The notes beneath the pieces are model-generated. The model made no database searches. It was not told the origin of the DNA and saw only the letters and a list, made by a program, of their open reading frames with translations. The position numbers were made by a program, and so were the translations under genes. Shown in pieces: positions 5,325 through 27,219 of a stretch of DNA of 32,900 bases; position 1 is the stretch's first letter; the number at the start of each line of letters is the position of its first letter. Location of the stretch: the NCBI GenBank assembly GCA_040386785.1, contig JAZKEW010000128.1:11152-44051 (forward strand). Reading direction: 5' to 3'. Origin of the DNA: Bdellovibrionota bacterium. GTDB lineage: Bacteria > Bdellovibrionota_B > Oligoflexia > Silvanigrellales > Silvanigrellaceae.

Positions 5325-5363
5325 AAGCGAGTCCTTTCTAAACAAAATTAAACATAAAAAATA

Positions 5364-5721: not shown

Positions 5722-5801
5722 AGCAGCTACGTGTATAATTAATTAACCTATTAGGCAAGGGAAAGAATTTTTCTCCACTTAACAATACAAAGGTCCATCA
5801 A

Positions 5802-12159: not shown

Positions 12160-13971
12160 ATGGTTGTTCGGAATTTTTTTGAAGATATTTTTCATAGGGC
12201 TGTAGATTATTTTACTCCTTATAAAATTAAATCTGTGCCCAACCTTAATGCTCGCGCTTATGCCATAGCGGGTGTCTTTAGCGCAATGCTTGTTTGTATT
12301 TTAATACGATACGCTTGGCTTTCTTTTTTTCCTACTGCAATTCGCACAAGACTTGTTGATACTGGATCAAGACAATTTGAATCTGTTGTGACCTTAATGC
12401 AACCAAGAGCAACTATAAGTGACAGAAATGGCTCACCACTTGCCGTAAGTGTTCCCAGCACAAGTATTTTTATTTTGACAAAACGTATGCCAAAGGACAG
12501 AGAAACTATTGAAAAAATTTCAAAGCAACTCAATGTTTCCTTTAATTACCTTATGCAAATTAAAAAAGAAAAACATAATTTTGTGTGGTTAAAACGCCAA
12601 TTAACTTCTATTGAATTAAGCAAACTAGGGACGCTTAAAAGGTGGCAAAATTTCATTGGCACTGTTGATGAACCAAAACGTATCTACCCTGAAAAGGACA
12701 TTGCTGCACAACTCATAGGTTTTGTTGGAGCCGATGGCAATGGGTTAGAAGGACTCGAAAAAATATACAATTCACGCCTAAATTCAAAACCGACAAAAGC
12801 AGAAGTCATGCGGGATGCACGTGGTAATTTTGTGATGGTCACACCAAATGATGCTTCAAAACCAGCACAAGATGCAGCAAATTTAAAACTATCTATAGAT
12901 TTAACCATTCAACAAATTACACAAAATGCATTAAAGGCCGGTGTTTTGAGAGCAAAAGCCAAGGGAGGAAGCGCACTTGTCATGGATGTTAAAAGTGGCG
13001 AATTATTAGCAATCGCAAGTTATCCAACTTACGACTTAAATAATCCGCCAGAAAATGATCCTGAAGCGCGTCGTTTTCGCCCAATTATGGACGCCATTGA
13101 GCTTGGTTCCGTAGTGAAACCCATGTGGATTGCCAAAGCGCTTGATTTAGGACTTATCACACCACAAACAAAAATTTGGGCTGAAAATGGCCAACTTGCA
13201 CTACGGGGAGGGGTTATTCACGATACCCATCCACACCAATGGCTTACTCCCGAAGAAATTCTCAAGGTGAGCAGTAATATTGGCTCATACAAAGTTGTGT
13301 CAAAAATGGGGCGCACTGAATTTTACAAAGCTCTCATGCAAATTGGTTTTGGGCGCTTTCCTGGCACAGGGCTTCCGGGAGAGTGGGGTGGGCGCATTCG
13401 CAAGCCGCAACGGTGGCATGACATTGATTTTGCAAATATGGCATTCGGACAAGGCTTTGCTATCTCTCCGTTACAACTTTTACATGGACTTTCCATTATT
13501 GTTGGCGGTGGTGTAGACCATGGCGTGAATTTACTAAAAGTCGACCCCTTACAACAGGACGACACCGTTGGGCCGCCTCTTCGTTATATTAGTGCAAAGA
13601 CCAGCAAAACTGTGGCAAACATGATGGTAGCCGTGGTGGAAGAAGATGGTGGCTCTGGTGGTGTACATGCTCGTATTCCTGGGGTTCTGGTGGCAGGTAA
13701 AACGGGGACCGCGCAAATTTGGAATAAAGATGAGCGTTCTTATTCTGGCCGGACGCCTGTATTTGAAGGAATTATTCCGGCCAATGACCCTAAGCTCGCT
13801 ATTGTAGTGGTTATTGACAGGGCAGGTGTGCGGCCCGCGCAAGGGGGGCCTATTTCTGGGCCGGTGTTTGCAGAAATTGGTCGAAAGACTGTGGATTATC
13901 TAAATTCGAGGGGAATTTACAATATGGTTCCATACCAGAACCAGTATTTGAAGGCTGTGAGCAAAAAATAA
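12160..13971 (+). CDS. ftsI: Peptidoglycan D,D-transpeptidase FtsI (PBP3)
   Basis: RATISDRNG, RIYP and GLEGLE dimerisation-domain motifs; SxxK (SVVK), SxN (SSN) and KTGT; dcw position. Confidence 0.95.
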   Translation: MVVRNFFEDIFHRAVDYFTPYKIKSVPNLNARAYAIAGVFSAMLVCILIRYAWLSFFPTAIRTRLVDTGSRQFESVVTLMQPRATISDRNGSPLAVSVPSTSIFILTKRMPKDRETIEKISKQLNVSFNYLMQIKKEKHNFVWLKRQLTSIELSKLGTLKRWQNFIGTVDEPKRIYPEKDIAAQLIGFVGADGNGLEGLEKIYNSRLNSKPTKAEVMRDARGNFVMVTPNDASKPAQDAANLKLSIDLTIQQITQNALKAGVLRAKAKGGSALVMDVKSGELLAIASYPTYDLNNPPENDPEARRFRPIMDAIELGSVVKPMWIAKALDLGLITPQTKIWAENGQLALRGGVIHDTHPHQWLTPEEILKVSSNIGSYKVVSKMGRTEFYKALMQIGFGRFPGTGLPGEWGGRIRKPQRWHDIDFANMAFGQGFAISPLQLLHGLSIIVGGGVDHGVNLLKVDPLQQDDTVGPPLRYISAKTSKTVANMMVAVVEEDGGSGGVHARIPGVLVAGKTGTAQIWNKDERSYSGRTPVFEGIIPANDPKLAIVVVIDRAGVRPAQGGPISGPVFAEIGRKTVDYLNSRGIYNMVPYQNQYLKAVSKK

Positions 13972-13979
13972 AAAACTTT

Positions 13980-14022
13980 TTGACTGCATAGTCTTATTCA
14001 TGTACACTTGATATGTACATGA
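13980..14022 (+). promoter_or_regulatory. Sigma70-like promoter with palindromic operator for the antitoxin-MazF-kinase operon
   Basis: TTGACT (13980-13985), 17 nt, TACACT (14003-14008); perfect inverted repeat TCATGTACA-N7-TGTACATGA (13998-14022) covers the -10. Confidence 0.75.
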
Positions 14023-14049
14023 TTTAAGGCCTCAAAAAAGGAGAAGGTT

Positions 14050-14271
14050 ATGTCAGTGAAAAAAATTCGAACTGAAATACATGATGCCAAAGATGGCAAG
14101 CTCAATGTTTTAATATCTAGCGGCTTTTATAAAAACAAAACAGAGGCTGTTAATACTGCAATAGAAATGCTTTTCATGCACCATTTAAAACAAGAAAACG
14201 AGCGTTCAGCTCTAGAACAAGCAAATTTGTACGACAATGAAATGATTTCTGTCCAAGGAATTCATAAATGA
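14050..14271 (+). CDS. Putative ribbon-helix-helix antitoxin
   Basis: 73 aa; N-terminal beta strand then LNVLISSGFYKNKTEAVNTAI (CopG/Arc-like G.Y.N.SE.VR.A pattern); acidic C-terminus; ATGA overlap with the toxin; AGGAG SD. Confidence 0.7.
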   Translation: MSVKKIRTEIHDAKDGKLNVLISSGFYKNKTEAVNTAIEMLFMHHLKQENERSALEQANLYDNEMISVQGIHK

Positions 14272-14624
14272 GACAATGGGATATTTACTGTGTAAATCAA
14301 CCAGAATCTCGCCATTCAACGCAACCTAAACAGCCTGGGGACCCCTCAGACAAGAATCGTTATTACATTATTATTTCCAATGATTATCATCTTGCATACG
14401 GAGGCAATCCGACGGTTATTCCAATAGGCACTAGGTGTATTAACCGAGTAATGCACCTCAAAGTTCCAAAAGCAAAAGAAAGCGGACTTCACCACGACTC
14501 TTATGCTTGGTGCAATGAGATATACACAGTACCTAAGAAATTTCTTATTAAAAAAATTGGCCTTGTTCCTGCAGAAAATATTGAAAATATAAAAAACGCT
14601 CTGCAAGCTTATTTAAATTTTTAA
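14268..14624 (+). CDS. PemK/MazF-family endoribonuclease toxin (divergent)
   Basis: MRQWDIY..., KNRYYIIISND, VIPIGT, SGL..DSYAWCNEIYTV.K..L.KKIG and ..IKNAL..YL follow the PemK/MazF pattern. Confidence 0.85.
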   Translation: MRQWDIYCVNQPESRHSTQPKQPGDPSDKNRYYIIISNDYHLAYGGNPTVIPIGTRCINRVMHLKVPKAKESGLHHDSYAWCNEIYTVPKKFLIKKIGLVPAENIENIKNALQAYLNF

Positions 14625-14644
14625 TAAACACCATAGGAGGACTG

Positions 14645-15169
14645 ATGAAAATAGTTTTTATTTCAGGAGACGGTCATGGCGCAGGCAAAACCTATTTAGC
14701 ACGCAAATTTACCAATGGCAGCCACCAAATATTTTCAATTGCAAATACCATCCGTTTTGAAATATCTCAAAAATATAAAAATTATGCTTGGTATAACAAA
14801 TCACCCGAATATAAAGACAACACGATTGTAAAAGAAACAAATAAAACAATTCGAGAAATGCTTGATGAATTTGGTCGTAACAAAAAAGCAAAGAAAAAAT
14901 TATACTGGGCAATTGCTCTTGCCAATTCACTTATTTATGCAAAAGAAAACGATAAATTAGATATTGTGGTTATTGACGACTTACGTTTTGTAGATGAAAT
15001 GCGTTACATTAAAGACCGTTTTCCTCATGATACTTCTTGTCATTTTCATGTTATAAACCCAAAAGCCGTTCCTGAACCGCATTATGAAAATGAGAGACTT
15101 AGAAAGCTGGCGGATTATTTTGTGAGTGCGAATAGGAGTCTGGAGGGTGAGGAATCCGCGGTAGCATGA
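14645..15169 (+). CDS. P-loop nucleoside-monophosphate-kinase-like protein (phage dNMP kinase / phosphomevalonate kinase-like)
   Basis: N-terminal ISGDGHGAGKT P-loop, SIANTIR, TIREMLDEFG..YW and VVIDDLRFVDE motifs; strong AGGAGG SD; 20 nt after the toxin stop. Confidence 0.7.
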   Translation: MKIVFISGDGHGAGKTYLARKFTNGSHQIFSIANTIRFEISQKYKNYAWYNKSPEYKDNTIVKETNKTIREMLDEFGRNKKAKKKLYWAIALANSLIYAKENDKLDIVVIDDLRFVDEMRYIKDRFPHDTSCHFHVINPKAVPEPHYENERLRKLADYFVSANRSLEGEESAVA

Positions 15170-15205
15170 TAATTCATGCGATAATTTGAATCAAAAATAT
15201 GCAAT

Positions 15206-16075
15206 TTATGTGACATAAATTTTATTTATTTGATTATATAAATCTCCTATTAAGTAAGTTAGAAAATCCCATAAATTTTCCTGTTCAATTGTTTTTTTTA
15301 TTTGGGATACTGATAGAAATCTCTCCATTTCTTTCTTAAATTCTAACTTTAATTCAATATTTTTTATCAACATCTGTTTTCGTTCGTAAAATAAATTTAA
15401 GAAATATTCCATTGTATAATTTCGATCTCGAACCTTATGAGAGATAAATTCAAATCTTGGTTTTATTCCTTGACCATGAAGCCATACTATATCCCATAAA
15501 TCTCGATATTTAATTCGGTTTGGCCTAAATGCAAATGCAATTAATTTATCTGCATAAATTTCTTCACGACTTTGAGCTTGTACGATAAGCCCACTAGTTC
15601 CCATATCAACACCGTATGCATTTAATAACATCATAGGACGTTTTTCATAGGAAGGTACAGCGCAGATATCTATATTAATACGTTGTGCGGGTAAATTTTT
15701 CTGTTGTGGCCTAGTTTCTATTTTTATTTTCCATGTATCAACATTTTGTTTATCTTTTACAGGCTCGCTGACTTGAACCGAAAGTCCATATTTTTTATTG
15801 AGATTTTCAATTAATATTTTTCCCATTTTAGATAAACTACTCTGCGTAAAATCACTTCCTCCAGTAAAATCCAAATCTTCGCTCAATCTGATTCCACCAT
15901 AACAGCATCGCAAACAAGTGCCTCCTATAAAAGTCAAATTTGCTAATAAATTGTTTGCGCTAAGCACTCGCAATATATCATGATGTAATAATTCTTTTTC
16001 AACAACCACTCTTAATGAAGACAAATTAGGTTGATTTTTTATTGCCTCTGTGACTAATTTATCAAATAAATTCAT
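15206..16075 (-). CDS. AbiEii-family nucleotidyltransferase toxin (type IV TA)
   Basis: FIGGTCLRCCYGGIRLSEDLDF signature; EIYADKLIA and KYRDLWD C-terminal motifs; overlaps the upstream antitoxin. Confidence 0.92.
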   Translation of the reverse strand: MNLFDKLVTEAIKNQPNLSSLRVVVEKELLHHDILRVLSANNLLANLTFIGGTCLRCCYGGIRLSEDLDFTGGSDFTQSSLSKMGKILIENLNKKYGLSVQVSEPVKDKQNVDTWKIKIETRPQQKNLPAQRINIDICAVPSYEKRPMMLLNAYGVDMGTSGLIVQAQSREEIYADKLIAFAFRPNRIKYRDLWDIVWLHGQGIKPRFEFISHKVRDRNYTMEYFLNLFYERKQMLIKNIELKLEFKKEMERFLSVSQIKKTIEQENLWDFLTYLIGDLYNQINKIYVT

Positions 16076-16610
16076 TCGCAGTATCCCAATCTATTAAATC
16101 GCAATTGCGATGTGTTGCTTTCATATCTCGTAATGCTAAAGCCACATTAGCCCGCCATAATTTACAATCAACATCATATTCCAATGATTTCATAACATCG
16201 GTTGGTCTTTGTTTCGTATGAATAAATTCAATAGTACCAAACTCTCCACAGGAAATAATACTACTCCTACCAGAGGACATGATTGAAATAGAATGCATGG
16301 GAATTTGAGAAATAATACCCACGTCACTTAAAATAGTTTCAAGACTGACATAATTAAAATCGTTCGCACGCAAAAGCGCTGCCACATTAAATAATAGCAG
16401 TCCATTTCGAGGAATGGCCCTTCTGTACACGTAAATTCCACGGCACACACGCACTAAATCACCTGCATGTGCTGCTCTGCTAAGTAAAGTTTTAAAAGCT
16501 TTCTCAGACAAGCTAGGAAAAAGTGAACGCATATCTTGTGCGGTAAACAAATGGTGCTCCTTCCCCGCGTTTTGAATAAACCAGTTACACAAATACTTGA
16601 TAGGTTGCAT
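16062..16610 (-). CDS. AbiEi-family antitoxin / transcriptional regulator
   Basis: N-terminal wHTH ending LVRVCRGIY; YVSLETILSDVGIISQIP motif; directly upstream of AbiEii; ATG 16610 is 10 nt from GGAG (GTG 16616 is an alternative). Confidence 0.88.
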   Translation of the reverse strand: MQPIKYLCNWFIQNAGKEHHLFTAQDMRSLFPSLSEKAFKTLLSRAAHAGDLVRVCRGIYVYRRAIPRNGLLLFNVAALLRANDFNYVSLETILSDVGIISQIPMHSISIMSSGRSSIISCGEFGTIEFIHTKQRPTDVMKSLEYDVDCKLWRANVALALRDMKATHRNCDLIDWDTANEFI

Positions 16611-16615
16611 AAACA

Positions 16616-16669
16616 CATCACTCCACGGTAAGTTACACTAATTGTAACTTACCGTGGAGTGATGATCAA
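16616..16669 (-). promoter_or_regulatory. AbiE promoter and 22-bp perfect inverted-repeat operator
   Basis: CATCACTCCACGGTAAGTTACA (16616-16637), 5 nt, TGTAACTTACCGTGGAGTGATG (16643-16664); minus-strand TTGATC-17-TACAAT promoter overlaps the distal arm. Confidence 0.88.
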
Positions 16670-16733
16670 GGAGTCTTATTGTTCATCAAGAATCTCATGA
16701 ACAAGGCGTCAGGAAATCAAGTTTCGGTTTATC

Positions 16734-16761
16734 TTGACTTTTAGTCTGTTTTTGGTAGGGT
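16734..16761 (+). promoter_or_regulatory. Possible sigma70 promoter of the 1061-aa orphan
   Basis: TTGACT-16 nt-TAGGGT with TG extension, followed by an AGGAG SD; an 8-bp inverted repeat TTGTTCAT-N10-ATGAACAA lies upstream at 16679-16704. Confidence 0.4.
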
Positions 16762-16784
16762 TAGCTGGAATAGGAGAATAGAGT

Positions 16785-19700
16785 ATGTCATCACCATTGC
16801 CACTAAGAGCTGCGACAACGGGGCCCGCACTTAAACCAACGCCATCTAAACCAGGCAGTGACCCTGCAATGTCGAGTTCAACAAGCGCCTCGGTCCTGTT
16901 TACTCCAAAGGCTCCAGAGCGTGATGATGCACTTAAAGGTCTTTTTGAAAAAGGAAAAACACCTCCTAGAGATCTCCGTCTCTCTGAACGAAAAAAAATC
17001 TTTAAACTAGTCCAAACTGCACTCAAAAACCTGAAAGATGATAAATACGAGCCCAATAAAGACGTCCATTTGAGAGATAAAGCCGATGAAGCTTTATTCT
17101 TACTTGGAGTTTTAGACAATCTAGTCTCGGCAACGGGTTTTGGTGGTGAATCTCCATCTCATAAAAATGCTGTAGACGATGAAAAAATATCTATAGCTGC
17201 CGACGCTCCACTAAACCAAAAGCCCACAAATAATAGCCCAGATTATGGTTTTGATGTGTTGTATGCAGAAATTTGGACTTTCTACAAAGGTGGTTCGAGC
17301 ACGCTGTTTCAACTTTCAACAAGTGAGGAAGACAAGGCTCTCATAACACGAGCACGTCAGTTGGCAAACAGAGCGCCTGATGACAAAACACCACTCACAG
17401 CGGAGGAACTGTTCTTAGCAACCTACACCAAATTCACTGCAACTTCACCTGCGGTAATATCACTCAAAAATGAAGTTATTGAGCACTACACTGCAGCTGT
17501 TGATCGAGTGTTAGCCCTACTAGATATGCCAGAAGAAAAAGCAATACAACAATCGGATATTCATGCAATTCAAGCACTTATTAAAGATTTTATTGCTGCA
17601 TGCCAGAAAGAAATCAAAGAAAAGCCTAAAATAACTCTGCTTGAAACATCGCCAGAGTTTCAATCTAAAGTAAGTGAGCTAAAGAAACTTAAAGAAGAAC
17701 TGAAAAATGCTCAAACACTGGCTCAGTTTTTACTTGATTTAAAAAACGCACTCTCTACTACTGAAGGTGATAAAAGTCTGTACAAATATGACTCTAAAAA
17801 AATTGACACACTTAAAGCAGGCCTTACTGGGCATTCTGAAATTTTAACTTCTTTAAAAAATCTGACAAAATTCATTAATAATCAACTCACTATTCCTAAA
17901 AATAGTTTGGAGTATTTTTTAGACTCGGGAAATCAAAATCGTTCCACTTCTCCCATCAAGCTCATTCAATGCCAAAATCTTGTAGGAAAAAACTCTGACG
18001 AAGTTTTGGCTGTATACAGGGAAATAATCTCTCAAATCAATCAATTAGTTGGAGAAAACGAAGGAAAAAATGTTCGCTTTGTCTTTTGGTATGGCGACGA
18101 TGAGGGAGCTATTAACGTTCCGGATTATTTAAACTCTCCTGAATTTGTTCATGAGCTTTCAAAAAATGGCTTGGATCTAAGATCTACATTTGCAAAAAAT
18201 TCAGCTCACATCCCAGAAGTGAAAAACGCTGATAGTGGTTTAATTGCTATAGCTTTTTGCATAGCACATATTAAAATTACAAGAGCTGAAGCACACATAG
18301 CAGATCAAAAAATTGTAAAAGAAATGAGAGACGCTGCGCAGGCTCACGCAATAACCTGTGTAAATGAATTCACTGCTGCTGCTTTTGATTCAACAAAAAC
18401 AATGAAGCATGAAACAGCAAGCACAATGAATGAGCTTGTCCTTGATTTAATTGAAAAATGCAGCAAAGAAATTCAAGCAAAAGAAGGAGAAATTCAAAAG
18501 CAAACCACACAATCGGCCTTTGCTAACGCTTTGGAAGTGGATTATTCAAAAAAAATTGATGAATTAACAAAACTCCGAACACAATGGACTCAACTCATAA
18601 GTCTGATTGACTTGTTCACTTATATGTTTAATAAAGATGATCGTAAAACTGCTGATAAAGATGACTACAAATTCCAAGAAAACTTGTGGGCAGGGGTTTC
18701 TCTCGCAAATGGCCACACTACCTCACTGACAGATGAAAAAGATATACGGGGTCTTTTAAAGCAAGTTACTGACTCACTCATTCCTGAGCTATTCTCAGAC
18801 CAAGCAAGCGCAAGGCTTTCGCTTACTCATTTTATGACTACGGTTCGATCAAGTACAACTACACCACCGCAACACGTATTCTTAGTCACCCAGCCTCTGA
18901 GCACTGTTAGCGTAGCTGCCAAAATCATAGACGAGCATACTAAAAATACCTCGATACAATTTGCCTTTGTTATTAGTAACAATGATGGCAATTCGTCCGT
19001 TCCTGATCGGAACTTTTTTGAGTCTCTTAATAACGAGTTGTTGAGCCAAGGTTCACAAATTCAAATACAGCTGAAGGTCGGTATTCCGTCAAACCCCGTG
19101 CAAGAAACCCAGTCTGATGTGAATTCGATTATTAATTGCGTTGATTGGTGCGCAAAGGCCCTCATCGTGAAACAATCTGTACCAAAGCTTGCGAGCTTAG
19201 AAGTAAATGCAGATGCTGATAATAAGTTTGCTATGGAGCGAGTTATTACCACACCTGGGGCTGAGTATGCTCTAGACGATGTTACATATATGTTTGTAAA
19301 TGCTGTAAATTTTGCCAATACTTCTCCATTCAACATTCGCAACAATGGGTTGCGCATGACACAAAATTGCTTAAAAGAATACAAAAAATACCTTCTCGAC
19401 CACTACGGAAGTGAAAGCCTTGAATTAAGAATTTCGCTCATCAGATTAATAGAAAAACTTGCGACCGCATCGGATGCACCCACTTCAGGCTACAAAACAC
19501 TGACTTGTGACATTGAATTTATGAGCGATTTTAATGCTATTTTTGTTTACAATAAGGCTGTTTTCGCTGCTGCTTTTAAACCCGCCCAAGTCCGACCCCA
19601 AACTTCACAAACATTGCCAAAACTTCCTCCAGATCTTCCTACGGTGAATGGACCAAGCGCTCCGTCATGGTCGTCGCAAGCTCCTCTCGGTGGCAGTGGC

Positions 19701-19970
19701 CAACATAAAAACGGGAGCAGTAAAATATTTACAGACATACCACCCAACATGGTTGAAAGCGACGGCGTATGGGCCAGAGTACCTTCGCGTTCACAAGTAC
19801 CTAAACCCCCTAGCACAAGTGCAGCAGGGAAGGAGGAGATATTCATTTCGGGTCGTGAAGTTAGAGCTGAAGCAGGGAAGGCAGCACCCATATCCACTAC
19901 ACCCTCGAAAAAATCCTTATTAGACGGTTTTCCTACAGAAAATGAACTGTTTCAGAGTATTAAAAAATAA
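16785..19970 (+). CDS. Large hypothetical protein with Pro/Ser/Thr-rich termini and an internal tandem duplication
   Basis: 1061-aa uninterrupted ORF with AGGAG SD; no signal peptide; two similar ~290-aa modules visible by eye. Confidence 0.8.
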   Translation: MSSPLPLRAATTGPALKPTPSKPGSDPAMSSSTSASVLFTPKAPERDDALKGLFEKGKTPPRDLRLSERKKIFKLVQTALKNLKDDKYEPNKDVHLRDKADEALFLLGVLDNLVSATGFGGESPSHKNAVDDEKISIAADAPLNQKPTNNSPDYGFDVLYAEIWTFYKGGSSTLFQLSTSEEDKALITRARQLANRAPDDKTPLTAEELFLATYTKFTATSPAVISLKNEVIEHYTAAVDRVLALLDMPEEKAIQQSDIHAIQALIKDFIAACQKEIKEKPKITLLETSPEFQSKVSELKKLKEELKNAQTLAQFLLDLKNALSTTEGDKSLYKYDSKKIDTLKAGLTGHSEILTSLKNLTKFINNQLTIPKNSLEYFLDSGNQNRSTSPIKLIQCQNLVGKNSDEVLAVYREIISQINQLVGENEGKNVRFVFWYGDDEGAINVPDYLNSPEFVHELSKNGLDLRSTFAKNSAHIPEVKNADSGLIAIAFCIAHIKITRAEAHIADQKIVKEMRDAAQAHAITCVNEFTAAAFDSTKTMKHETASTMNELVLDLIEKCSKEIQAKEGEIQKQTTQSAFANALEVDYSKKIDELTKLRTQWTQLISLIDLFTYMFNKDDRKTADKDDYKFQENLWAGVSLANGHTTSLTDEKDIRGLLKQVTDSLIPELFSDQASARLSLTHFMTTVRSSTTTPPQHVFLVTQPLSTVSVAAKIIDEHTKNTSIQFAFVISNNDGNSSVPDRNFFESLNNELLSQGSQIQIQLKVGIPSNPVQETQSDVNSIINCVDWCAKALIVKQSVPKLASLEVNADADNKFAMERVITTPGAEYALDDVTYMFVNAVNFANTSPFNIRNNGLRMTQNCLKEYKKYLLDHYGSESLELRISLIRLIEKLATASDAPTSGYKTLTCDIEFMSDFNAIFVYNKAVFAAAFKPAQVRPQTSQTLPKLPPDLPTVNGPSAPSWSSQAPLGGSGQHKNGSSKIFTDIPPNMVESDGVWARVPSRSQVPKPPSTSAAGKEEIFISGREVRAEAGKAAPISTTPSKKSLLDGFPTENELFQSIKK

Positions 19971-20116
19971 AAAACCAACATATTTTGTCTATTTCTTCAA
20001 CAGCCAGTGCTAATCGAAATTGCCTTGCTTGTGATATCTAAAGCTACATCACATAAAATCAACTTCCCGTTAGTATATGTAAACCAATCCATTTGAACTT
20101 CATCAGCACTTTCAGC

Positions 20117-20149
20117 TTGACTAAATATATCATAAAATTTAATATTAAA
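20117..20149 (+). promoter_or_regulatory. Sigma70-like promoter of the MqsR-like TA operon
   Basis: TTGACT (20117-20122), 17 nt, TAATAT (20140-20145); the palindrome TTTAATATTAAA (20138-20149) spans the -10. Confidence 0.6.
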
Positions 20150-20179
20150 CATCTTATGACACATTATACAGAGGTCTAG

Positions 20180-20554
20180 ATGCAGCAAGATATTACTCTC
20201 ACAGAGGTAGCCGAATTTCTTCAAACGTTCAAAGAAAATGCACAAGGAATCCCCCAGCGGGTTTTTTTAGTGCCAAGGTCAAAAAATTTAGAATCCATAG
20301 CAGAAATGGGTTTTACAGAAAAAATAGCCAAAGAGGCTATCTTAAATATTTTACCCATCGAGTACTCACAGGGGCCTTTATTGGAAAAAAATTATAACTT
20401 TGGTGAACAAGAATTATGGGTTTTTGGGAAAGATGTTTTTGGCTTTGAAGTCTACATCAAAACCACTGTAGGAATTAAAAAAGACGAATGCAAATGTTTA
20501 TCTTTTCATAAATCAGAGCGTCCAATGATTTATATTTTTAAAACAAAGGAGTAA
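20180..20554 (+). CDS. MqsR/RelE-fold-like toxin
   Basis: PR.KN...AEMG, YSQGP, LWVFGK....EVYIK and CLSFH motifs; toxin-first order ahead of an MqsA-like gene. Confidence 0.8.
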   Translation: MQQDITLTEVAEFLQTFKENAQGIPQRVFLVPRSKNLESIAEMGFTEKIAKEAILNILPIEYSQGPLLEKNYNFGEQELWVFGKDVFGFEVYIKTTVGIKKDECKCLSFHKSERPMIYIFKTKE

Positions 20555-20559
20555 CACAT

Positions 20560-21540
20560 ATGCCAGTTAAAAATTGCCCTACTTGTGGGGCTCAAGGTTG
20601 CATTGTCAGTAGAACATCTCCTCGTAAAATAACCGTTAAGAAAGAAATTATTGAAATAAACGACCACTTTTTATTTTGCACACAATGCCAAGAAGAATTT
20701 AATAACCCCGATATTGAATTTGATGCTTTGGAAGAAGCCTATAAAATTTATCGTGCAAAACATCATTTTGTGACCCCAGAACAAATTACTTCTTATCGTA
20801 AAAGTTTAGGCTTGACTCAAATTGAATTCGCGAAGCTCTTAGGCTTTGGTGATGCCACAATTCAACGTTATGAAAGCGGTGCCTTGCAAGAAAACTCTCA
20901 CGATTCTGCTATTCAAATGGCAATGACCATGGACGGCCTCAAAAAACTTATTGAAAAGAATAGCTCCACCATTCCAGATGAAAAAATGGCCTTAATAGAA
21001 AGCTATGTGCGAAAAAAACAATTTGAAACAAATATTGAGCTCATTATTCCTCAAGAAATTAGCGAATTTACAGGAAACAAAAAATTTGACTGGAATAAAT
21101 TTAGAGATGTTATTGAAATTTTGTGCGCTAATGGGCAGTACTACACAAAACTTAACAAATTACTTTTTTATGCTGATTTTTATTATTACAAAATAAGAAC
21201 TGTTTCAATAACTGGCTGCGCTTATATTCATTTACCATATGGGCCAGTTCCATTTCATTATAGTGATCTTTACGATATGCTTCCCGCAGAAAGTTTTCTC
21301 CTCGCTGCGGAGGGCATTGGAACGAAATGCAAATCACTCAAGAAATCCTCTCCACAATTTCTAACAAAAGATGAAATTGACATTTTAAATGCTGTCTTAA
21401 ACTATTTTAAAGAAATAAATTCAAAAGAGATTTCCGACTTATCTCATTTAGAAGACGCTTATATTAAAACAAAAATGCACTCACAAATTTCTTATAAATT
21501 CTCTTCTTCATTAAAATTACAGCTAGAACCAACCAATTAA
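20560..21540 (+). CDS. MqsA-like antitoxin: Zn-ribbon + XRE HTH + DUF4065 (Panacea/SocA) domain
   Basis: CPTC...CTQC Zn ribbon; YRKSLGLTQIEFAKLLGFGDATIQRYESG HTH; TKLNKLLFYADF...YGPVP...SDLSH DUF4065 motifs. Confidence 0.88.
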   Translation: MPVKNCPTCGAQGCIVSRTSPRKITVKKEIIEINDHFLFCTQCQEEFNNPDIEFDALEEAYKIYRAKHHFVTPEQITSYRKSLGLTQIEFAKLLGFGDATIQRYESGALQENSHDSAIQMAMTMDGLKKLIEKNSSTIPDEKMALIESYVRKKQFETNIELIIPQEISEFTGNKKFDWNKFRDVIEILCANGQYYTKLNKLLFYADFYYYKIRTVSITGCAYIHLPYGPVPFHYSDLYDMLPAESFLLAAEGIGTKCKSLKKSSPQFLTKDEIDILNAVLNYFKEINSKEISDLSHLEDAYIKTKMHSQISYKFSSSLKLQLEPTN

Positions 21541-21638
21541 ATCTCCACCCACTGATGCAATAAAATCCCGAAACCTGTAAATAATAAACTCCAACTTTAC
21601 ATTTTCCGTAAAAAAATAAACCGAGAAGGCCACAACAT

Positions 21639-22783
21639 ATGAGCTTTACAAGGGAAATTAGCGAACTACTCAAAAAACAGGCCCGCCTATTTAAAATCTT
21701 TACTCTTCTAGGCCCCAGGCAAAGCGGCAAAACCACCCTGCTGCGCACGTTATTTCTGAATTACATCTATGTATCGCTAGAAAGCCCTGACGTTTTAGAA
21801 CGAATGATCTCCGATTTTCGCAGTTTTTTTAGAGACATTGGATTTTAGATGAAGCGCACAATTCCCCTCAATTATTTGCTTACCTTCAAGAATTTGTTGA
21901 TGACCCCACTCGTGAAAATAAATTTATTTTATCCAGCTCTCAGAATTTTTTATTGCATGAAAAAATTGCGCAAAGTTTAGCTGGGCGTATTGGCTTATAC
22001 GAATTGTTGCCACTCACTTATTCTGAGTACAAAACTTTTACTGAATTAAAAAATCTCACCTTGTTGGAATATTTATTTGGTGGTCAGTACCCCAGGCCAT
22101 ACAATGAAAAGTTGTCCATAAAAAAATGGATTGAAAGCTGCGTTGTTTAGGCTTAGATACGAAACTAGGGACATAAAAGACCTTGCAAAATTTAAATTAT
22201 TTATGAAGCTGTGCGCTGGATATCACGGACAACAATTCAATGCCCATCAAGTTTCCATTGATTGTGGCATATCGCAAACAACTGTACACAATTGGTTGGG
22301 AATTTTGGAATCTAGCTTTATTATATTTAAACTTCAACCATATTATAAAAACTATAATAAACGCTTGGTAAAGTCTGCAAAAATATACTTTTATGACTCT
22401 GCAATTGTCTGCTACCTTTTAGGCGTTGATTCCCTACAACATGTAGAACTTCATCCACAAAAAGGTGCTATTTTTGAAGGTTTTATAAGCGCTGAAATGA
22501 TAAAATTATCTAAGAATTTTGAAACTATAAGCAGCCTTATTATTGGCGCACTCATCAAGGACAAGAAATTGATGTCATTATTGATTCTTCACCCTTGAAA
22601 ATAGTGGAACTAAAATCTGGGGCTACTTTTCAAAAATCATTCGTGGAAAACATATTGAATTGGCAGTTGTTATCAGAAGATAATGCACAAGGATTTTTAG
22701 TGTATGGGGGAGAAGAAGATTTTGAATTTAAAAATATTCACGTACTACCTTGGCACAAAGTAGCGCAAATATTTCGCAGCTAA
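21639..22783 (+). pseudogene. Frameshifted AAA_14/DUF4143 ATPase-nuclease pseudogene
   Basis: Walker A GPRQSGKT, Walker B ILDEAH with SLAGR, KRLVKSAKIYFYD, and YYWRTHQGQEID..VELKS fall in four successive segments; frame breaks near 21840, 22140-22160 and 22525. Confidence 0.85.
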
Positions 22784-22827
22784 CTTGCCACATAAATTTT
22801 TCCCTAGACATAACTCCAATTACATTA

Positions 22828-22878
22828 TGTTATAAAAGTCGGTTTTACTGACATCATCACAAAAACCGACTTTTATAA
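22828..22878 (+). promoter_or_regulatory. 17-bp perfect inverted repeat with an extended -10-like element
   Basis: TTATAAAAGTCGGTTTT (22830-22846), 15 nt, AAAACCGACTTTTATAA (22862-22878); TGtTATAAA at 22828-22836. Could be an operator or a terminator. Confidence 0.55.
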
Positions 22879-23024
22879 ATTCCAATAATATTAAACTGTT
22901 GAATACTAAAAGGAAATTGGCTTTTAGAAAAAATACTCTCTAAAAATAAAAAAATTTTTTTCATTTTTCAGGAAAACTAAACTCTAAAAACAAAGAAACA
23001 AAAAAAGAATTTATATAAAAATAG

Positions 23025-23119
23025 AGCATATTTTCTGAAATAGATGATCTCTTAGAAAGAAAGTCGAGTTTGTTGACGTGGCAGAGAATATGAGAACTAG
23101 AAGACTTGTTCTAAAAACC
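23025..23119 (+). pseudogene. Possible relic of a minimal nucleotidyltransferase (MNT) gene
   Basis: With one base restored it reads SIFSEIDDLLERKVEFVDVAENMRTRRLVLKT, resembling the L..LL.RKVDLVD C-terminal MNT pattern. Confidence 0.3.
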
Positions 23120-23138
23120 AACCTACAGATTTAGCAAA

Positions 23139-23226
23139 TTGCTTTCTCAGCACGTTATCGGCATAATCAAATAGGCAGAAACGCCGATAACATGCCGAGA
23201 AAGTGCCGATAACATGCCGAGAAAAT
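23139..23226 (+). repeat. Fic promoter with 11-bp repeats (four direct, two inverted)
   Basis: TTGCTT-17-CATAAT (23139-23167); direct units GCCGATAACAT/GCCGAGAAAGT/GCCGATAACAT/GCCGAGAAAAT (23183-23226); an inverted double unit at 23141-23164 fills the promoter spacer. Confidence 0.8.
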
Positions 23227-24317
23227 TCTGCCCTACATATGCAATAACCCCCAAGATTGCTCAAGATCTTCTAAAAATTGAATCTATCAAAGAAAAAATT
23301 GTCCACTTGCCCCTAACACCAACAATACTCTCCTCATTACGAGAAACTGCACGACTTTTTACGACTCATTACTCCACCATGATTGAGGGAAATCGTCTTG
23401 AACTGCAACAAATAGATGATGTGTTAAAACATAAAGGCCACTTTCCAGGGCGCGAACGTGACGAACATGAAGTCAAAGGTTACTATGCCGCACTAACACA
23501 AATTGAACAGTGGGTCGCAAAAGAGACTCCTATAAATGAAAAAATGCTGCAAACTTTGCACGCCATGGTCATGAGCAGCGGTTCTGCTCGGGTCAAACCA
23601 ACTCCATACCGAGATGGACAAAACGTAATTCGTGACGGACACACAAAACAAATTGTCTATATGCCCCCAGAAGCTAAAGATGTCCCACACTTAATGGCAG
23701 CATTGATAAATTGGATTTCTGACAATAAAAATACTCTTCCTTGTCCAGTGGTCGCAAGTATTGTTCATTATCAATTTGCAACAATACACCCTTATTATGA
23801 TGGAAACGGCAGAACGGCGCGCCTTTTAACAACATTTATTTTGCACTTAGGAAATTATGATTTAAAGGGTTTATATTCTCTTGAAGAATATTATGCACGC
23901 AATTTATCAGGTTATTATAACGCAATTAGCATAGGCACTTCTCATAATTATTATATGGGAAGAGAAAATGCTGATATTACAAAATGGATAGATTATTTTA
24001 TTGGCGGCATGCTTATTTCATTTGAAAAAGTTTATGAACATATGCATGAAGCTCATCTCCACGGCGCAGCAGACAATACAGAACTTATTCGTAATTTAGA
24101 TGCCAAACAACGTAAAGTTTTAGAACTTTTTCAACAATTTTCTGTTGTCACTTCTAGTCAAATTGGAAATTTATTCGGATTTAAGCCTCGTACCAGTACT
24201 CAACTTTGTAAAAAGTGGACTGAAGCAGGTTTTCTTGAAATCATAAATTTTTCAAATAAGGGAAGAAAATATAGGCTTGCAAAATATTATGAAGAACTAC
24301 TTTGCAAGAAAAAATAA
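23214..24317 (+). CDS. Fic-domain protein (class II-like) with C-terminal wHTH
   Basis: HPYYDGNGRTAR Fic motif; N-terminal inhibitory-like STMIEGN; C-terminal wHTH (QRKVLE...TSSQIGNLFG..PRT). Confidence 0.93.
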   Translation: MPRKFCPTYAITPKIAQDLLKIESIKEKIVHLPLTPTILSSLRETARLFTTHYSTMIEGNRLELQQIDDVLKHKGHFPGRERDEHEVKGYYAALTQIEQWVAKETPINEKMLQTLHAMVMSSGSARVKPTPYRDGQNVIRDGHTKQIVYMPPEAKDVPHLMAALINWISDNKNTLPCPVVASIVHYQFATIHPYYDGNGRTARLLTTFILHLGNYDLKGLYSLEEYYARNLSGYYNAISIGTSHNYYMGRENADITKWIDYFIGGMLISFEKVYEHMHEAHLHGAADNTELIRNLDAKQRKVLELFQQFSVVTSSQIGNLFGFKPRTSTQLCKKWTEAGFLEIINFSNKGRKYRLAKYYEELLCKKK

Positions 24318-24324
24318 AGTAAAA

Positions 24325-25503
24325 CTAACAAATCTCTTCCAATGACTCCTCCAATCCGTACCAAGGAACCAAATCAAATTCCGTCCTAACTTGTTTTTCA
24401 ACCCCCCCATAAACAACAAAGGGGCGCTCAAGCTGAATATAATCTTTAACCGATCGAATTCCTTTTAAAAATTCATCTCGAAATGTTTCTGCAGATTTAA
24501 TTTCAATTGGATATAATTTTCCTCCATAGGAAAAAATAAGATCAATTTCATTATCTTTCGTATCACGGTAAAAATAAAACCGATGCTGTTTGCCTTGATT
24601 AAATCTCCATTTAATAGCTTCGCTCACCTGCATATTTTCAAAAATATTTCCCCGCAAAGGATGAGTCGTAACATGTTTTTCATTTTCAATTCCAAGTAAA
24701 AAACACACAAGCCCAACATCATAAAAATATAATTTCGGAGATTTAATAAGACGTTTCCCTATATTTTCAAAATATGGCTGCAATCTAAAAATAATAAAAG
24801 ATGCTTCTAAAACAGAAAGCCACTCTTCTACAGTTTTTGCTGAGATACCCACATCACGAGCAAGACTATCTTTATTCAAAATTTGCCCAACCCTACCAGC
24901 ACACAGTGTTATAAATTTTTTAAATAAAGAAAGATCTTTTATCATAATAAGTTCGCGAACATCTCTTTCAACATAAGTTTCAAAATAACTACTGTAAAAA
25001 AAATCACTCGATGTCTTTGAAGAGTAAATTCTTGGATAAAAACCTTTGATTAAAAACTCGTTAATATCTAAATTTTTTGGTATTAATAAATTAGATTGTT
25101 GCAATTCAGACAAGGAAAAAGGCAGCAAATGAAATACGGCTGTTCTACCAGCCAAAGACTGATTAATAGATCGCATCATTGTAAATTGATGACTTCCTGA
25201 CAAAATAAATTGCCCATTTCTTTTTTTTTCGTCTACAATAACCTGAATATAAGAAAGTAACTCTGGTACACGTTGAACTTCATCAAGAATAACTCCATCT
25301 GGAAACTGTCTTAAAAAAGATGAAGGATCCATTCTTGCAAAGTCTTGAACTTTAGGTTCTTCAAGATTTATGTACTTAAAATTTGGAAATTGCGTTTTAA
25401 TTAAAGTTGTTTTTCCTGACTGACGAGGCCCTGTGATTGTCACCACTGGAAACTCTTCCATGCCTTTTTGAACAGCTAAGGCTAGCTTGCGAGGCAAATC
25501 CAT
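24325..25503 (-). CDS. AAA_14/DUF4143 ATPase with C-terminal PD-(D/E)xK-like domain
   Basis: GPRQSGKT, ILDEVQ, LSGS, SLAGR, YVERD, central HTH (SLARDVGISAKTVEEWL), KSPKLYFYDVG and EIDL..IEIKS. Confidence 0.92.
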   Translation of the reverse strand: MDLPRKLALAVQKGMEEFPVVTITGPRQSGKTTLIKTQFPNFKYINLEEPKVQDFARMDPSSFLRQFPDGVILDEVQRVPELLSYIQVIVDEKKRNGQFILSGSHQFTMMRSINQSLAGRTAVFHLLPFSLSELQQSNLLIPKNLDINEFLIKGFYPRIYSSKTSSDFFYSSYFETYVERDVRELIMIKDLSLFKKFITLCAGRVGQILNKDSLARDVGISAKTVEEWLSVLEASFIIFRLQPYFENIGKRLIKSPKLYFYDVGLVCFLLGIENEKHVTTHPLRGNIFENMQVSEAIKWRFNQGKQHRFYFYRDTKDNEIDLIFSYGGKLYPIEIKSAETFRDEFLKGIRSVKDYIQLERPFVVYGGVEKQVRTEFDLVPWYGLEESLEEIC

Positions 25504-25520
25504 TGCTAAATTTCCCTTTA

Positions 25521-25579
25521 ATTATAGAATGTTAAATAAAATGGTGTAAATCAGGAGTTCAACTCACGATTTACACCAT
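25521..25579 (-). promoter_or_regulatory. Promoter with 19-bp inverted repeat upstream of the 24325-25503 ATPase
   Basis: Arms 25541-25559 and 25561-25579 (ATGGTGTAAATC..GAGTT-C-AACTC..GATTTACACCAT, 2 mismatches); minus-strand TTTACA-18-TATAAT with the -35 inside the proximal arm. Confidence 0.65.
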
Positions 25580-25607
25580 CGTACCTTGAACATTCAAAAG
25601 ATACAAA

Positions 25608-26753
25608 TCAAATAATTTCATCTGCCCACAATTTTTTTATAAACTCCATGGCGGGTAAAATTTCAATACCATCCTCTGTTTTGCGTCCTTGCGTTTCCAT
25701 ACAAACAATAATTCTCTTTTTTACACGGGGGATTTCTTCATATAAAACACGCATATTTTTTAGATGATCGGCTTTTATACTTTGTGATGATTTGCATTCA
25801 AGAGCCACTTCCATGTCATTTAAAATAAAGTCAATTTCCACACCATTATCCATACGCCAAAAGCTAATGTCATAAAATTTATCCGTATACTGGCTATGGG
25901 CGCGCAATTCATGAAAAACCCAATTCTCAAATGCTTTTCCATATAATTCTGTGCCTATTTGAATTTTTCCTCGTTTATTCAAAAAATTCACCACACCCAC
26001 ATCAAAAAAATAAAACTTAGGGTTAGAAATGGTTTTTCGTTTTTCTCTTTTTGCATAAGAAGGTAATATATAACCGACAAGAGTGTCTTGTAAAATTTCA
26101 AAATATTCTTTTATAGTTGGGCTAGAAACACCACAATCACGAGCAATAGTACTATAGTTAATAATTTCCGTGTCTGAAAAAGAAGCCGCATTTAAAAATC
26201 GAGTAAAGACAGGTAAATTTCTAACTAAACCTTCTGCAGCAATTTCCTCTTTTAGATAATCATTTATATAGGCCTGCAACATTCTTTTTGGATTTTCAGC
26301 CAAATAATGACGAGGCAAATACCCATGGTTTAAGGCTTTTTCAAGATTAAATTCTGCACCAATTTCTTGTGCAATTAAGCCAAATAATTCATACCTTAGA
26401 GCACGTCCACCAAGTAAATTCGCATGTCCACGTTTTAATTTTCGTGCACTAGAACCACAAAGGACAAATTTAACCCCTTTATTTTCAATAAGCCAATGAA
26501 CTTCATCAAGAAGTTCTGGTATTTTTTGAACCTCGTCCACCAGAACAATAGAATCATTGGAAAGGAGAATTTCTTCTCTAAGTAATGAAGGGTTATTTTT
26601 GTATTTCATGTAAACATTATTTTTTAAAAGATCGATCCGGGTTGCCATTGGAAAAATGAAATGCAACAATGTGCTTTTGCCCGTTTGCCTTGGTCCCCAT
26701 ATGAAAATAGACTCTTGGCTGGTGGTATCAAGCATCAGTTTACGGTTAAACAT
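25608..26753 (-). CDS. AAA_14/DUF4143 ATPase with C-terminal PD-(D/E)xK-like domain (second intact paralogue)
   Basis: GPRQTGKS, LVDEVQK, LCGSSARKL, LLGGR, YLKEEI, HTH (IARDCGVSSPTIKEYF), PKFYFFDVG and EIDF..LECKS. Confidence 0.92.
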   Translation of the reverse strand: MFNRKLMLDTTSQESIFIWGPRQTGKSTLLHFIFPMATRIDLLKNNVYMKYKNNPSLLREEILLSNDSIVLVDEVQKIPELLDEVHWLIENKGVKFVLCGSSARKLKRGHANLLGGRALRYELFGLIAQEIGAEFNLEKALNHGYLPRHYLAENPKRMLQAYINDYLKEEIAAEGLVRNLPVFTRFLNAASFSDTEIINYSTIARDCGVSSPTIKEYFEILQDTLVGYILPSYAKREKRKTISNPKFYFFDVGVVNFLNKRGKIQIGTELYGKAFENWVFHELRAHSQYTDKFYDISFWRMDNGVEIDFILNDMEVALECKSSQSIKADHLKNMRVLYEEIPRVKKRIIVCMETQGRKTEDGIEILPAMEFIKKLWADEII

Positions 26754-26763
26754 AGAGAATCCT

Positions 26764-26859
26764 TAAAGCAGTACTTTAAATTAAACGGTAAAATTTAAAG
26801 TGCTACTTTAAATTATTCACGGTAAAGTATAGTTTATTCAAGTATTTACACCAAGTCAA
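26764..26859 (-). promoter_or_regulatory. Promoter and 19-bp inverted repeat upstream of the 25608-26753 ATPase
   Basis: Minus-strand TTGACT (26859-26854), 17 nt, TAAACT (26836-26831); inverted arms 26764-26782 and 26792-26810 (2 mismatches); TACTTTAAATTA..ACGGTAAA is also repeated directly. Confidence 0.7.
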
Positions 26860-26938
26860 CGATCAAATTTCAAAAACGGAACCTCATTCAAACCTTACGA
26901 CCACCCCATGGTGGATCTGCACAGAACTGGAACTCAAA

Positions 26939-27214: not shown

Positions 27215-27219
27215 CTTTT

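What the first reader, a model, noticed from the sequence alone, without database searches (positions are those of the whole stretch)
13972..26860. Integrase-free array of self-regulated toxin/defence cassettes inside the dcw cluster
Seen: ftsI and murE are separated by ~13 kb holding about eight units in mixed orientation. Six intact units have a sigma70-like promoter overlapped or closely followed by a unit-specific palindrome (13998-14022, 16616-16664, 20138-20149, 23141-23226, 25541-25579, 26764-26810), and four promoters use the same TTGACT -35. Intact, frameshifted and relic cassettes coexist, and no integrase, transposase, attC or tRNA is visible. Known: TA, Abi and defence genes cluster in hotspots flanked by core genes. 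Inference: a high-turnover hotspot of promoter-operator-gene modules, exchanged by recombination through essential cell-wall genes; its unannotated members are candidate new defence systems.
Basis: partly seen in the sequence, partly recalled or inferred. Interest (0 to 1): 0.75.

Follow-up and report, generated by a model that had tools for sequence, protein, structure and literature searches.

The report
Toxin-gene pile-up splitting a cell-wall operon
A 13-kb block that splits a cell-wall gene cluster in one uncultured bacterium holds known toxin-antitoxin and candidate phage-defence genes, four or five of them behind their own promoter palindrome that likely lets each protein switch off its own gene; related species have nothing at this site, so it is likely one lineage's pile-up of a gene type scattered through its genome rather than a new kind of element.

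Summary
The block is real: 13.25 kb separate ftsI from murE, whereas 12 of 12 congeners have the genes adjacent. It holds RHH-MazF, AbiEi/AbiEii, MqsR-like/Panacea, a Fic-HTH, two intact and one broken AAA_14-DUF4143 (PDC-S01) genes, a CBU_0592 gene, a 1061-aa orphan and a displaced genus-native kinase; no integrase, tRNA, attC or att repeat. Four of six claimed palindromes beat all shuffles, one is borderline, one is chance; TTGACT is simply this genome's commonest -35. The same palindrome-plus-gene modules sit singly between housekeeping genes all over this genome (19 DUF4143 matches versus 0-1 in congeners, polyphyletic), so the block is the densest heap of a genome-wide habit. The palindromes travel with their genes and track the protein tree, and the ATPase-nuclease has a winged helix, so self-repression is likely. 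The scan reported those PDC-S01 operators before on other DNA; I found no paper on them. A high-turnover hotspot exchanged through ftsI/murE is neither shown nor excluded, because no conspecific sequence was available. Nothing in it is a new defence system; the orphan looks more like a secreted effector.

The parts
12160..13971 (+). ftsI (PBP3), left core flank; the dcw orthologue, not the second ftsI paralogue of congeners
   Evidence: Pfam; trees of both halves group it with dcw copies
13980..14022 (+). promoter (TTGACT 13980, TACACT 14003-14008) overlapped by a 9-bp-arm palindrome 13998-14022; likely RHH operator, statistically borderline
   Evidence: 12 of 200 shuffles
14050..14624 (+). 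RHH-type antitoxin (14050-14271, weak Pfam hit below cut-off) and MazF/PemK toxin (14268-14624)
14645..15169 (+). nucleotide-kinase-like gene native to the genus, displaced from its place beside the LysM gene upstream of rsmH
   Evidence: 49-58% identical in 9 of 12 congeners, in 6 of them 2-5 kb from rsmH; PMVK/dNMP-kinase weak hits
15206..16616 (-). AbiEi (16616-16062) and AbiEii (16075-15206), type IV toxin-antitoxin / abortive infection pair
   Evidence: Pfam, PADLOC, NCBIfam over cut-off
16616..16669 (-). abiE promoter with perfect 22-bp-arm inverted repeat (16616-16664), -10 TACAAT in the loop
   Evidence: 0 of 200 shuffles; same design as IR1/IR2 of abiE in PMC3985639
16785..19970 (+). 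1061-aa orphan, helical, with S/T/P-rich disordered ends; no significant palindrome; candidate secreted effector (inferred)
   Evidence: no family, no homologue, pLDDT 37; genome has a non-flagellar type III secretion cluster
20117..21540 (+). promoter (TTGACT 20117), MqsR-family toxin (20180-20554) and MqsA-Zn-finger/HTH/Panacea antitoxin (20560-21540); palindrome at chance level
21639..22783 (+). broken AAA_14-DUF4143 gene in four pieces, no operator left upstream
   Evidence: upstream palindrome score 6, 85 of 200 shuffles
22830..22878 (.). orphan inverted repeat in a 430-bp AT-rich gap: operator of a lost gene or a terminator
   Evidence: no protein match in the gap
23142..24317 (+). Fic protein with C-terminal helix-turn-helix-like region (23214-24317; PADLOC SoFic) behind one inverted and two direct copies of a TGCCGATAA/GCCGAGAAA motif (23142-23224)
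   Evidence: motif and layout kept before the orthologue in G010
24325..25579 (-). intact AAA_14-winged helix-PD-(D/E)XK gene (PDC-S01; 25503-24325) with operator palindrome 25541-25579 over the -35 box
25608..26859 (-). second intact PDC-S01 gene (26753-25608) with palindrome 26763-26811 and promoter TTGACT 26859
26939..27214 (+). CBU_0592-family small membrane protein, 5 bp before murE; not found with this query in 12 congeners
27220..28824 (+). murE, right core flank

Best explanation
The block is a lineage-specific insertion between ftsI and murE that likely grew by serial, independent arrival of small self-contained promoter-operator-gene modules of known toxin-antitoxin and candidate-defence families, each of which likely represses its own promoter through the palindrome in front of it. 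Shown: the gene content, the empty site in all congeners, the absence of integrase/att/attC/tRNA, the same modules scattered singly between housekeeping genes elsewhere in this genome, their polyphyly, and operators that move and diverge with their genes. Inferred: that the AbiEi, RHH, Fic-HTH and AAA-winged-helix proteins bind these palindromes; that once ftsI and murE were uncoupled (murE needing its own promoter near 26754-26938) the gap became a tolerated landing place, also for a displaced native kinase and an orphan effector-like gene; that entry is by homology-assisted or illegitimate recombination of foreign DNA (a ComEC-family gene is present), with self-repression and addiction letting a module survive arrival without any host regulator.
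For: Empty site in 12 of 12 congeners and 7 of 7 other class members and in 2 of 2 close metagenome loci. DUF4143: 19 matches in this genome, 0-1 in congeners (2 of 12 have any); copies fall in many clades beside proteins of other families; nearest in-genome paralogue only 56% aa / 69% nt. 10 of 15 scored DUF4143 genes have an upstream inverted repeat scoring >=13 versus 16 of 1606 other genes; in other genomes 20 of 38 score >=11 versus 16 of 233 controls. Upstream similarity rises with protein identity (Mantel r 0.21, 0 of 5000 permutations); in the pair L060/L107 homology begins exactly at the palindrome and the flanks are unrelated; -10 boxes lie in the loops, so the left arm is not transcribed and the site works as DNA. 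Confident model (pLDDT 94.9) shows a winged helix at residues 191-241 between ATPase and nuclease, with AAA+/winged-helix neighbours SSO1545, Paby2304, Cdc6/Orc1. AbiEi binding to 23-bp inverted repeats is published (PMC3985639). Solo modules abut housekeeping genes such as trmFO, rlmD, ychF, fabH, lysA, map, lspA, pnp, bioB; a second heap follows ftsZ on C6.
Against: No binding was measured. Five of 15 DUF4143 genes, 4 of 9 ATPase_2 and 7 of 9 Fic genes of this genome have no strong inverted repeat; 18 of 38 foreign DUF4143 genes score <11. The rank correlation between protein identity and upstream similarity is weak (Spearman 0.054, p 0.059), and 5 of 9 pairs above 50% identity share no strong upstream match. 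Two of the block's units (MqsR-Panacea, orphan) have no significant palindrome. The order of arrival and the entry route cannot be read from one genome; no promoter for murE was identified.
Confidence: 0.7

Rival explanations
1. Species-level hotspot (minimal-mobile-element type): strains of this species carry different cargo between ftsI and murE and swap it by homologous recombination in the two essential flanks. Compatible with the best explanation as a later stage.
For: MGE-free hotspots with recombining core flanks are common (PMC5635113, abstract); a ComEC-family gene is present; intact, broken and orphan-operator states coexist; the block is the densest operator cluster of the assembly.
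Against: No second allele exists in anything searched: congeners are empty, metagenome scans found no conspecific, the two other runs of the study hold no long piece of it; both halves of ftsI give the same placement. Congeners put their variable cargo elsewhere, at a tRNA-Arg(CCG) island.
Confidence: 0.15
2. Remnant of one conventional mobile element (prophage, ICE or satellite) that has lost its integrase and att sites.
For: AbiE, Fic and TA pairs are common cargo of such elements (established knowledge); the genome has 11 tyrosine-recombinase matches.
Against: No phage, conjugation or recombinase gene or fragment among the block's ORFs; longest repeat shared by the borders is a 10-bp A-rich word that occurs 443 times in the genome; a genus-native kinase lies inside; the three ATPase-nuclease genes belong to different clades.
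Confidence: 0.07
3. The ATPase-nuclease modules are self-mobile selfish genes: the protein binds its palindrome and uses its PD-(D/E)XK nuclease and TnsC-like ATPase to promote its own insertion next to host stop codons.
For: Module boundary coincides with the palindrome; genes sit singly and often within a few bases of a host stop codon; weak profile match to TnsC (E 5e-4); 10-22 copies in some genomes, 0-1 in others.
Against: No near-identical copies in the genome (best 69% nt), no 3' end repeat or target duplication seen, no strand-transfer enzyme; unrelated families (AbiE, Fic, RHH-MazF) show the same habit.
Confidence: 0.05
4. Assembly chimera joining foreign DNA into the dcw cluster.
For: Low-depth metagenome assembly (3-7x); the right border (26753-27220) was not among the listed bridging pieces.
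Against: Run X1 gives even depth over all 30 bins, no joints, no differences, and one contig (13142-14274) bridges the left border with 0 differences (X1 may be the source sample); the block holds a genus-native gene and a gene 69% identical to a paralogue on C23; GC matches the host.
Confidence: 0.03

Closest known systems
MGE-free gene-transfer hotspots between core genes (Oliveira et al. 2017, PMC5635113, abstract read) and Neisseria minimal mobile elements, including insertions in the Neisseria dcw cluster (titles seen in the reference list of PMC1538595; content recalled)
   Same: Accessory genes between two conserved housekeeping genes, no integrase or att site, a competence gene in the genome, even the same gene cluster as host.
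   Different: Those are defined by variable cargo among strains and recombination in the flanks; here only one allele is known and all congeners are empty.
AbiE type IV toxin-antitoxin system (Dy et al. 2014, PMC3985639, passages read)
   Same: Bicistronic abiEi-abiEii, winged-helix antitoxin, about 22-23-bp inverted repeat on the promoter.
   Different: Nothing material; an ordinary member.
PADLOC phage-defence candidate PDC-S01 (Pfam AAA_14 + DUF4143; Payne et al. 10.1101/2024.01.29.577857 and PMC12988326, passages read)
   Same: Single gene, ATPase fused to a PD-(D/E)XK domain, invariant Walker A/B and D-ExK residues; very common and untested.
   Different: The clade-specific promoter palindromes and the likely self-repression through the internal winged helix were not found in the passages or searches; earlier reports of this scan noted them on other DNA.
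MqsR-PanA (Panacea/DUF4065) toxin-antitoxin pairs (Kurata et al. 2022, PMC8832971, passages read)
   Same: MqsR-like toxin upstream of an HTH-Panacea antitoxin; MqsR-like is the commonest annotated PanT class there.
   Different: No significant operator palindrome here; neutralisation was not shown for the one MqsR pair tested in that paper.
Integron cassette arrays / CALIN (recalled)
   Same: Array of small toxin and defence genes without a nearby integrase.
   Different: No attC, mixed orientation, each unit has its own promoter, palindromes are unit-specific and at the 5' end.

Membership tests
Integron / CALIN | attC sites (RYYYAAC...GTTRRRY hairpins) between cassettes | tested here: not met
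   pattern scan of all 11 intergenic stretches, both strands, no hit; no shared non-A-rich word between spacers; no repeat family at unit borders. IntegronFinder itself was not available.
Integron / CALIN | promoterless cassettes in one orientation | tested here: not met
   mixed strands, own promoter-like sites
Integrative element / prophage / tRNA island | integrase or transposase in or beside the block | tested here: not met
   (11 PF00589 matches, none on C128); transposase families were not searched genome-wide
Integrative element / prophage / tRNA island | att direct repeats or tRNA at the borders | tested here: not met
MGE-free hotspot / minimal mobile element | accessory genes between two core genes adjacent in relatives | tested here: met
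MGE-free hotspot / minimal mobile element | different cargo at the same site among strains of the species | tested here: inconclusive
   no conspecific found; congeners empty
MGE-free hotspot / minimal mobile element | raised homologous recombination in the flanking core genes | not testable with these tools
   needs population data; only a deep half-gene tree was possible
AbiE (type IV TA) | abiEi-abiEii operon with both domains | tested here: met
AbiE (type IV TA) | long inverted repeat on the promoter | tested here: met
AbiE (type IV TA) | toxicity, antitoxicity, abortive infection | not testable with these tools
   bench work
PDC-S01 (AAA_14 + DUF4143) | both Pfam domains over cut-off in one ORF with Walker A/B and D-ExK residues | tested here: met
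   for 24325-25503 and 25608-26753
PDC-S01 (AAA_14 + DUF4143) | anti-phage activity | not testable with these tools
   validation pending for most PDCs (PMC12988326)
MqsR-PanA | MqsR-like toxin followed by Panacea antitoxin | tested here: met
   Panacea, MqsA and HTH hits; toxin matches plasmid proteins annotated MqsR at 33-37%, no HMM hit of its own
Type II MazEF-like TA | PemK toxin overlapping a small DNA-binding antitoxin gene | tested here: met
   PemK over cut-off; RHH hit below cut-off; 4-bp overlap

The most novel reading that the evidence does not exclude
The palindrome-plus-gene unit is an unrecognised minimal selfish element: AAA-winged-helix-PD-(D/E)XK (PDC-S01) proteins, one of the commonest untested gene families in prokaryotes, recognise private clade-specific palindromes not only to silence themselves but to license their own integrase-free spread, and the broken dcw operon of this host-associated bacterium is their landing pad.
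Probability: 0.06. Interest if true: 0.85.

Novelty: new member of a known kind. Interest (0 to 1): 0.32.

Why it matters
As a locus it is an ordinary example of accessory-gene accretion between core genes, made of catalogued families. Its useful by-product is a ready test set: gene-specific operators for PDC-S01, reported as the fourth most common defence candidate in prokaryotes and still untested (PMC12988326), and for a Fic-HTH family. Cognate/non-cognate operator swaps would show directly whether these ATPase-nucleases are DNA-binding self-repressors, and native promoters would allow fair phage challenges. It also shows a Silvanigrellaceae lineage with type III secretion genes that collects such solo modules far more than its congeners.

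Tried and rejected
ftsI chimera idea: 10 fetched loci of a second ftsI paralogue in congeners all lie beside tRNA-Arg(CCG) and a variable island; I tested whether recombination between paralogues had carried that island into the dcw cluster; both half-gene trees and the diagnostic columns place the window's ftsI with dcw copies (the whole-gene tree did not finish). Conspecific comparison: metagenome scan with murE found nothing, with mraY only 74-82% relatives; genome-contig scan with ftsI gave one irrelevant hit; the closest MraY proteins (86-89%) lie on 2-7-kb contigs that could not be fetched. No RNA holder listed. Runs X2 and X3 hold only short foreign matches. The right border was not among the listed pieces. 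1061-aa orphan: two homology searches, three HMM libraries, PDB search and an internal-repeat test gave nothing; the single-sequence model is unusable; the protein atlas did not answer. Dot/Icm and VirB4 families were not found in this 87%-complete assembly (the first control rang nowhere). The shared AAAAAATAAA word at several unit borders is just a Lys-Lys-stop ending (22 of 1799 genes; 443 copies). Literature: 'DUF4143' is held by 4 papers, 'PDC-S01' by 7, and the COG1373/inverted-repeat/autoregulation search listed none holding COG1373 among the top 20; passages read from four of these sources and from the PADLOC preprint mention no operator; supplements were not seen and subscription journals are not covered, so 'not in print' is limited to these searches.


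Full report
Setting. The window is G000:C128:11152-44051 of a 2.46-Mb, 232-contig assembly, 87% complete. Its MraY is 82-83% identical to proteins named Fluviispira vulneris and Spirobacillus cienkowskii and 74% to a Silvanigrellaceae MAG, so it is a Silvanigrellaceae lineage without a close sequenced relative.

Observation. ftsI (12160-13971) and murE (27220-28824) are 13,248 bp apart. Pfam, PADLOC and NCBIfam name the contents: RHH-type antitoxin and MazF; a kinase-like gene; AbiEi/AbiEii; a 1061-aa orphan; a 124-aa protein that matches plasmid proteins annotated MqsR before an MqsA-HTH-Panacea antitoxin; an AAA_14-DUF4143 gene broken into four pieces; a Fic protein (SoFic model); two intact AAA_14-DUF4143 genes (PDC-S01); a CBU_0592 membrane protein. 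There is no tRNA, no Rfam family in the block, no attC-like pattern in the 11 spacers and no border repeat longer than a 10-bp A-rich word, and none of the genome's 11 tyrosine-recombinase matches is on this contig. Five inverted repeats scoring >=13 lie in the block, against 0 in 38 and 1 in 2 of 40 shuffles. Per unit, the AbiE, Fic and two ATPase palindromes beat 200 of 200 shuffles; the RHH-MazF one is reached by 12 of 200; the one before the MqsR-like gene by 153 of 200. TTGACT precedes four units but is the commonest TTGACN -35 before genes genome-wide (18 versus 12 TTGACA), and the promoter scan is only weakly above shuffles (61 versus 47.3+-7.5).

Assembly. Only one run holds the stretch (X1, possibly the source). 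It covers all bins at 3-7x with no joints or differences, and one contig bridges the left border. The right border was not among the pieces listed. A genus-native gene and a 69%-identical paralogue on C23 tie the block to this genome.

Relatives. In 12 of 12 congeners the ftsI and murE matches lie 25-285 bp apart, and in 7 of 7 other class members with both on one contig 220-1094 bp (partial murE matches); eight junctions read directly show gaps of -113 to +20 bp (the negative values come from my first-start ORF calls); two close metagenome loci are also empty. So the site is no hotspot at genus level. Congeners keep variable cargo at another place, a tRNA-Arg(CCG) island beside a second ftsI (10 of 10 loci fetched); the window's ftsI is not a chimera with that paralogue. 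The kinase is not foreign: 9 of 12 congeners have it at 49-58% identity, 6 of them beside the LysM gene upstream of rsmH; in this genome its usual neighbours are on C77. At DNA level only the kinase and one Fic gene (G010) match the block in congeners.

A genome-wide habit. This genome has 19 DUF4143 matches, 8 ATPase_2 matches over cut-off and 8 Fic matches; congeners have 0-1 DUF4143 (2 of 12 any) and 0-4 Fic. Of 198 strong inverted repeats in the assembly, 66 lie at 5' ends of ORFs, many before these solo genes, which sit singly between housekeeping genes such as trmFO, rlmD, aspartate kinase/ychF, fabH, lysA, map/ribD, lspA, pnp and bioB. A second heap (RES toxin, ATPase_2 with its palindrome, an 818-aa orphan) follows ftsZ on C6. 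The DUF4143 copies are polyphyletic, most with nearest relatives in other families (FastTree, 51 rows), which points to repeated import, not duplication. The ftsI-murE block is the densest such heap (5 strong repeats in 13.25 kb; next best elsewhere 3).

The palindromes as operators. Of 17 DUF4143 loci probed, 15 could be scored: 10 have an upstream repeat scoring >=13, against 16 of 1606 other genes; ATPase_2 5 of 9 score >=11; Fic 2 of 9. I fetched 40 of about 75 DUF4143 matches in other genomes of the class, the higher-scoring ones; 38 could be scored: 20 reach >=11 and 14 reach >=13, against 16 and 7 of 233 control genes. Upstream similarity follows protein similarity (Mantel r 0.21, 0 of 5000; but Spearman 0.054, p 0.059; 4 of 9 pairs above 50% identity, 9 of 81 at 40-50%, 10 of 1135 below 40% score >=12); kin are not independent, so this is indicative. 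In the pair L060/L107 homology starts exactly at the palindrome and the flanks are unrelated, so promoter, operator and gene move as one unit. In several cases the -10 box lies in the loop, which argues for a DNA site rather than an RNA hairpin. The Fic orthologue in G010 keeps the TGCCGATAA motif in the same inverted-plus-direct layout. A confident model of the 24325-25503 protein (pLDDT 94.9) has three helices and a wing at 191-241 between ATPase and nuclease, and its nearest solved folds are archaeal AAA+/winged-helix proteins and Cdc6/Orc1; Walker A/B and D-ExK residues are invariant in 48 sequences. AbiEi repression through 23-bp inverted repeats is published (PMC3985639, passages). Binding by the ATPase-nuclease and Fic proteins is inferred, not shown.

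The orphan. The 1061-aa ORF has no homologue among 5.8 billion clustered proteins (7996 candidates scored) or 1.84 billion representatives and no usable model. It has no significant palindrome. Its low-complexity S/T/P ends (seen in the sequence), and a type III secretion cluster on C191 (SctD-like below cut-off, TyeA, SctU, FliN-like), ankyrin and Wip-like genes elsewhere make a secreted effector more likely than a defence gene; this is inference. A Legionellales amoeba symbiont likewise shows expanded AAA/DUF4143 families and many TA and PADLOC genes (10.64898/2026.04.11.717937, passages).

Mechanism. Most likely the ftsI-murE junction was opened once in this lineage, the downstream genes gained their own promoter (not identified), and the gap then tolerated successive arrivals of self-repressing modules, as happens singly elsewhere in the genome. 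Entry is probably by recombination of taken-up DNA (ComEC-family gene present), but the route is not shown.

Comparison with what is known. It works like an MGE-free hotspot or minimal mobile element (PMC5635113, abstract; Neisseria minimal mobile elements and dcw insertions seen only as reference titles in PMC1538595, content recalled), but the defining strain variation is untested. It fails the tests for integron/CALIN and for integrative elements. All toxin and defence members belong to catalogued families (PMC8832971, passages; PMC12988326, passages; 10.1101/2024.01.29.577857, passages). The PDC-S01 operators were not found in print in my searches (supplements unseen), but eight earlier reports of this scan describe them on other genomes; my tests were made before that look-up.

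Verdict. Real, lineage-specific, made of known parts: a new member of a known kind, interest 0.32. The part worth bench work is the operator set of the PDC-S01 and Fic-HTH genes.

Noticed in passing
L031-L040 (second ftsI locus of congeners): Ten congener loci carry a second ftsI paralogue (59-65% identical to the window's) next to tRNA-Arg(CCG), followed by cargo that differs in each genome and often includes a 385-aa integrase-sized ORF family; this genome has one ftsI match only and its tRNA-Arg(CCG) is on C200.
   Followed up: partly
G000:C191 (L206:2023-8931): Non-flagellar type III secretion cluster (TyeA-domain gatekeeper, SctU, FliN-like, SctD-like); with ankyrin-repeat (L055:3521-5293) and Wip-like (L068:2762-4522) genes this suggests a host-associated lifestyle.
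   Followed up: partly
G000:C6 (L052:3796-9010): Second heap right after ftsZ: small ORF plus RES toxin, ATPase_2 gene behind a doubled palindrome, and an 818-aa ORF with no family.
   Followed up: partly
G000:C123 (L064:221-1214 in contig coordinates): The same AbiE-type palindrome occurs twice about 930 bp apart, once before a DUF4440 region and once before an intact AbiE pair: a duplicated or orphaned operator.
   Followed up: no
window 5802-8954: glyQ and glyS are fused in one 1050-aa ORF; the same length is seen in G001 (L043:11430-14582).
   Followed up: no
window 5359-5722 (-): RNase P RNA (RF00010) directly upstream of metK on the same strand.
   Followed up: yes
window 3582-4064: 160-aa ORF with no Pfam family and no paralogue in the genome, convergent with metK.
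   Followed up: partly
L193/L202 and L192/L201: Two congeners carry the kinase-like gene as a tandem pair; three others hold it beside a DODA-type dioxygenase-like ORF away from the dcw cluster (two read).
   Followed up: partly
G000:C128:7325-8839 (L051), upstream of the window: A further 504-aa Fic-domain gene between argininosuccinate synthase and acetyl-CoA synthetase, without a palindrome.
   Followed up: partly
L054:11327-11947: 206-aa ORF with a weak IscB-family (HNH-type) match beside an AAA_14-DUF4143 gene.
   Followed up: no
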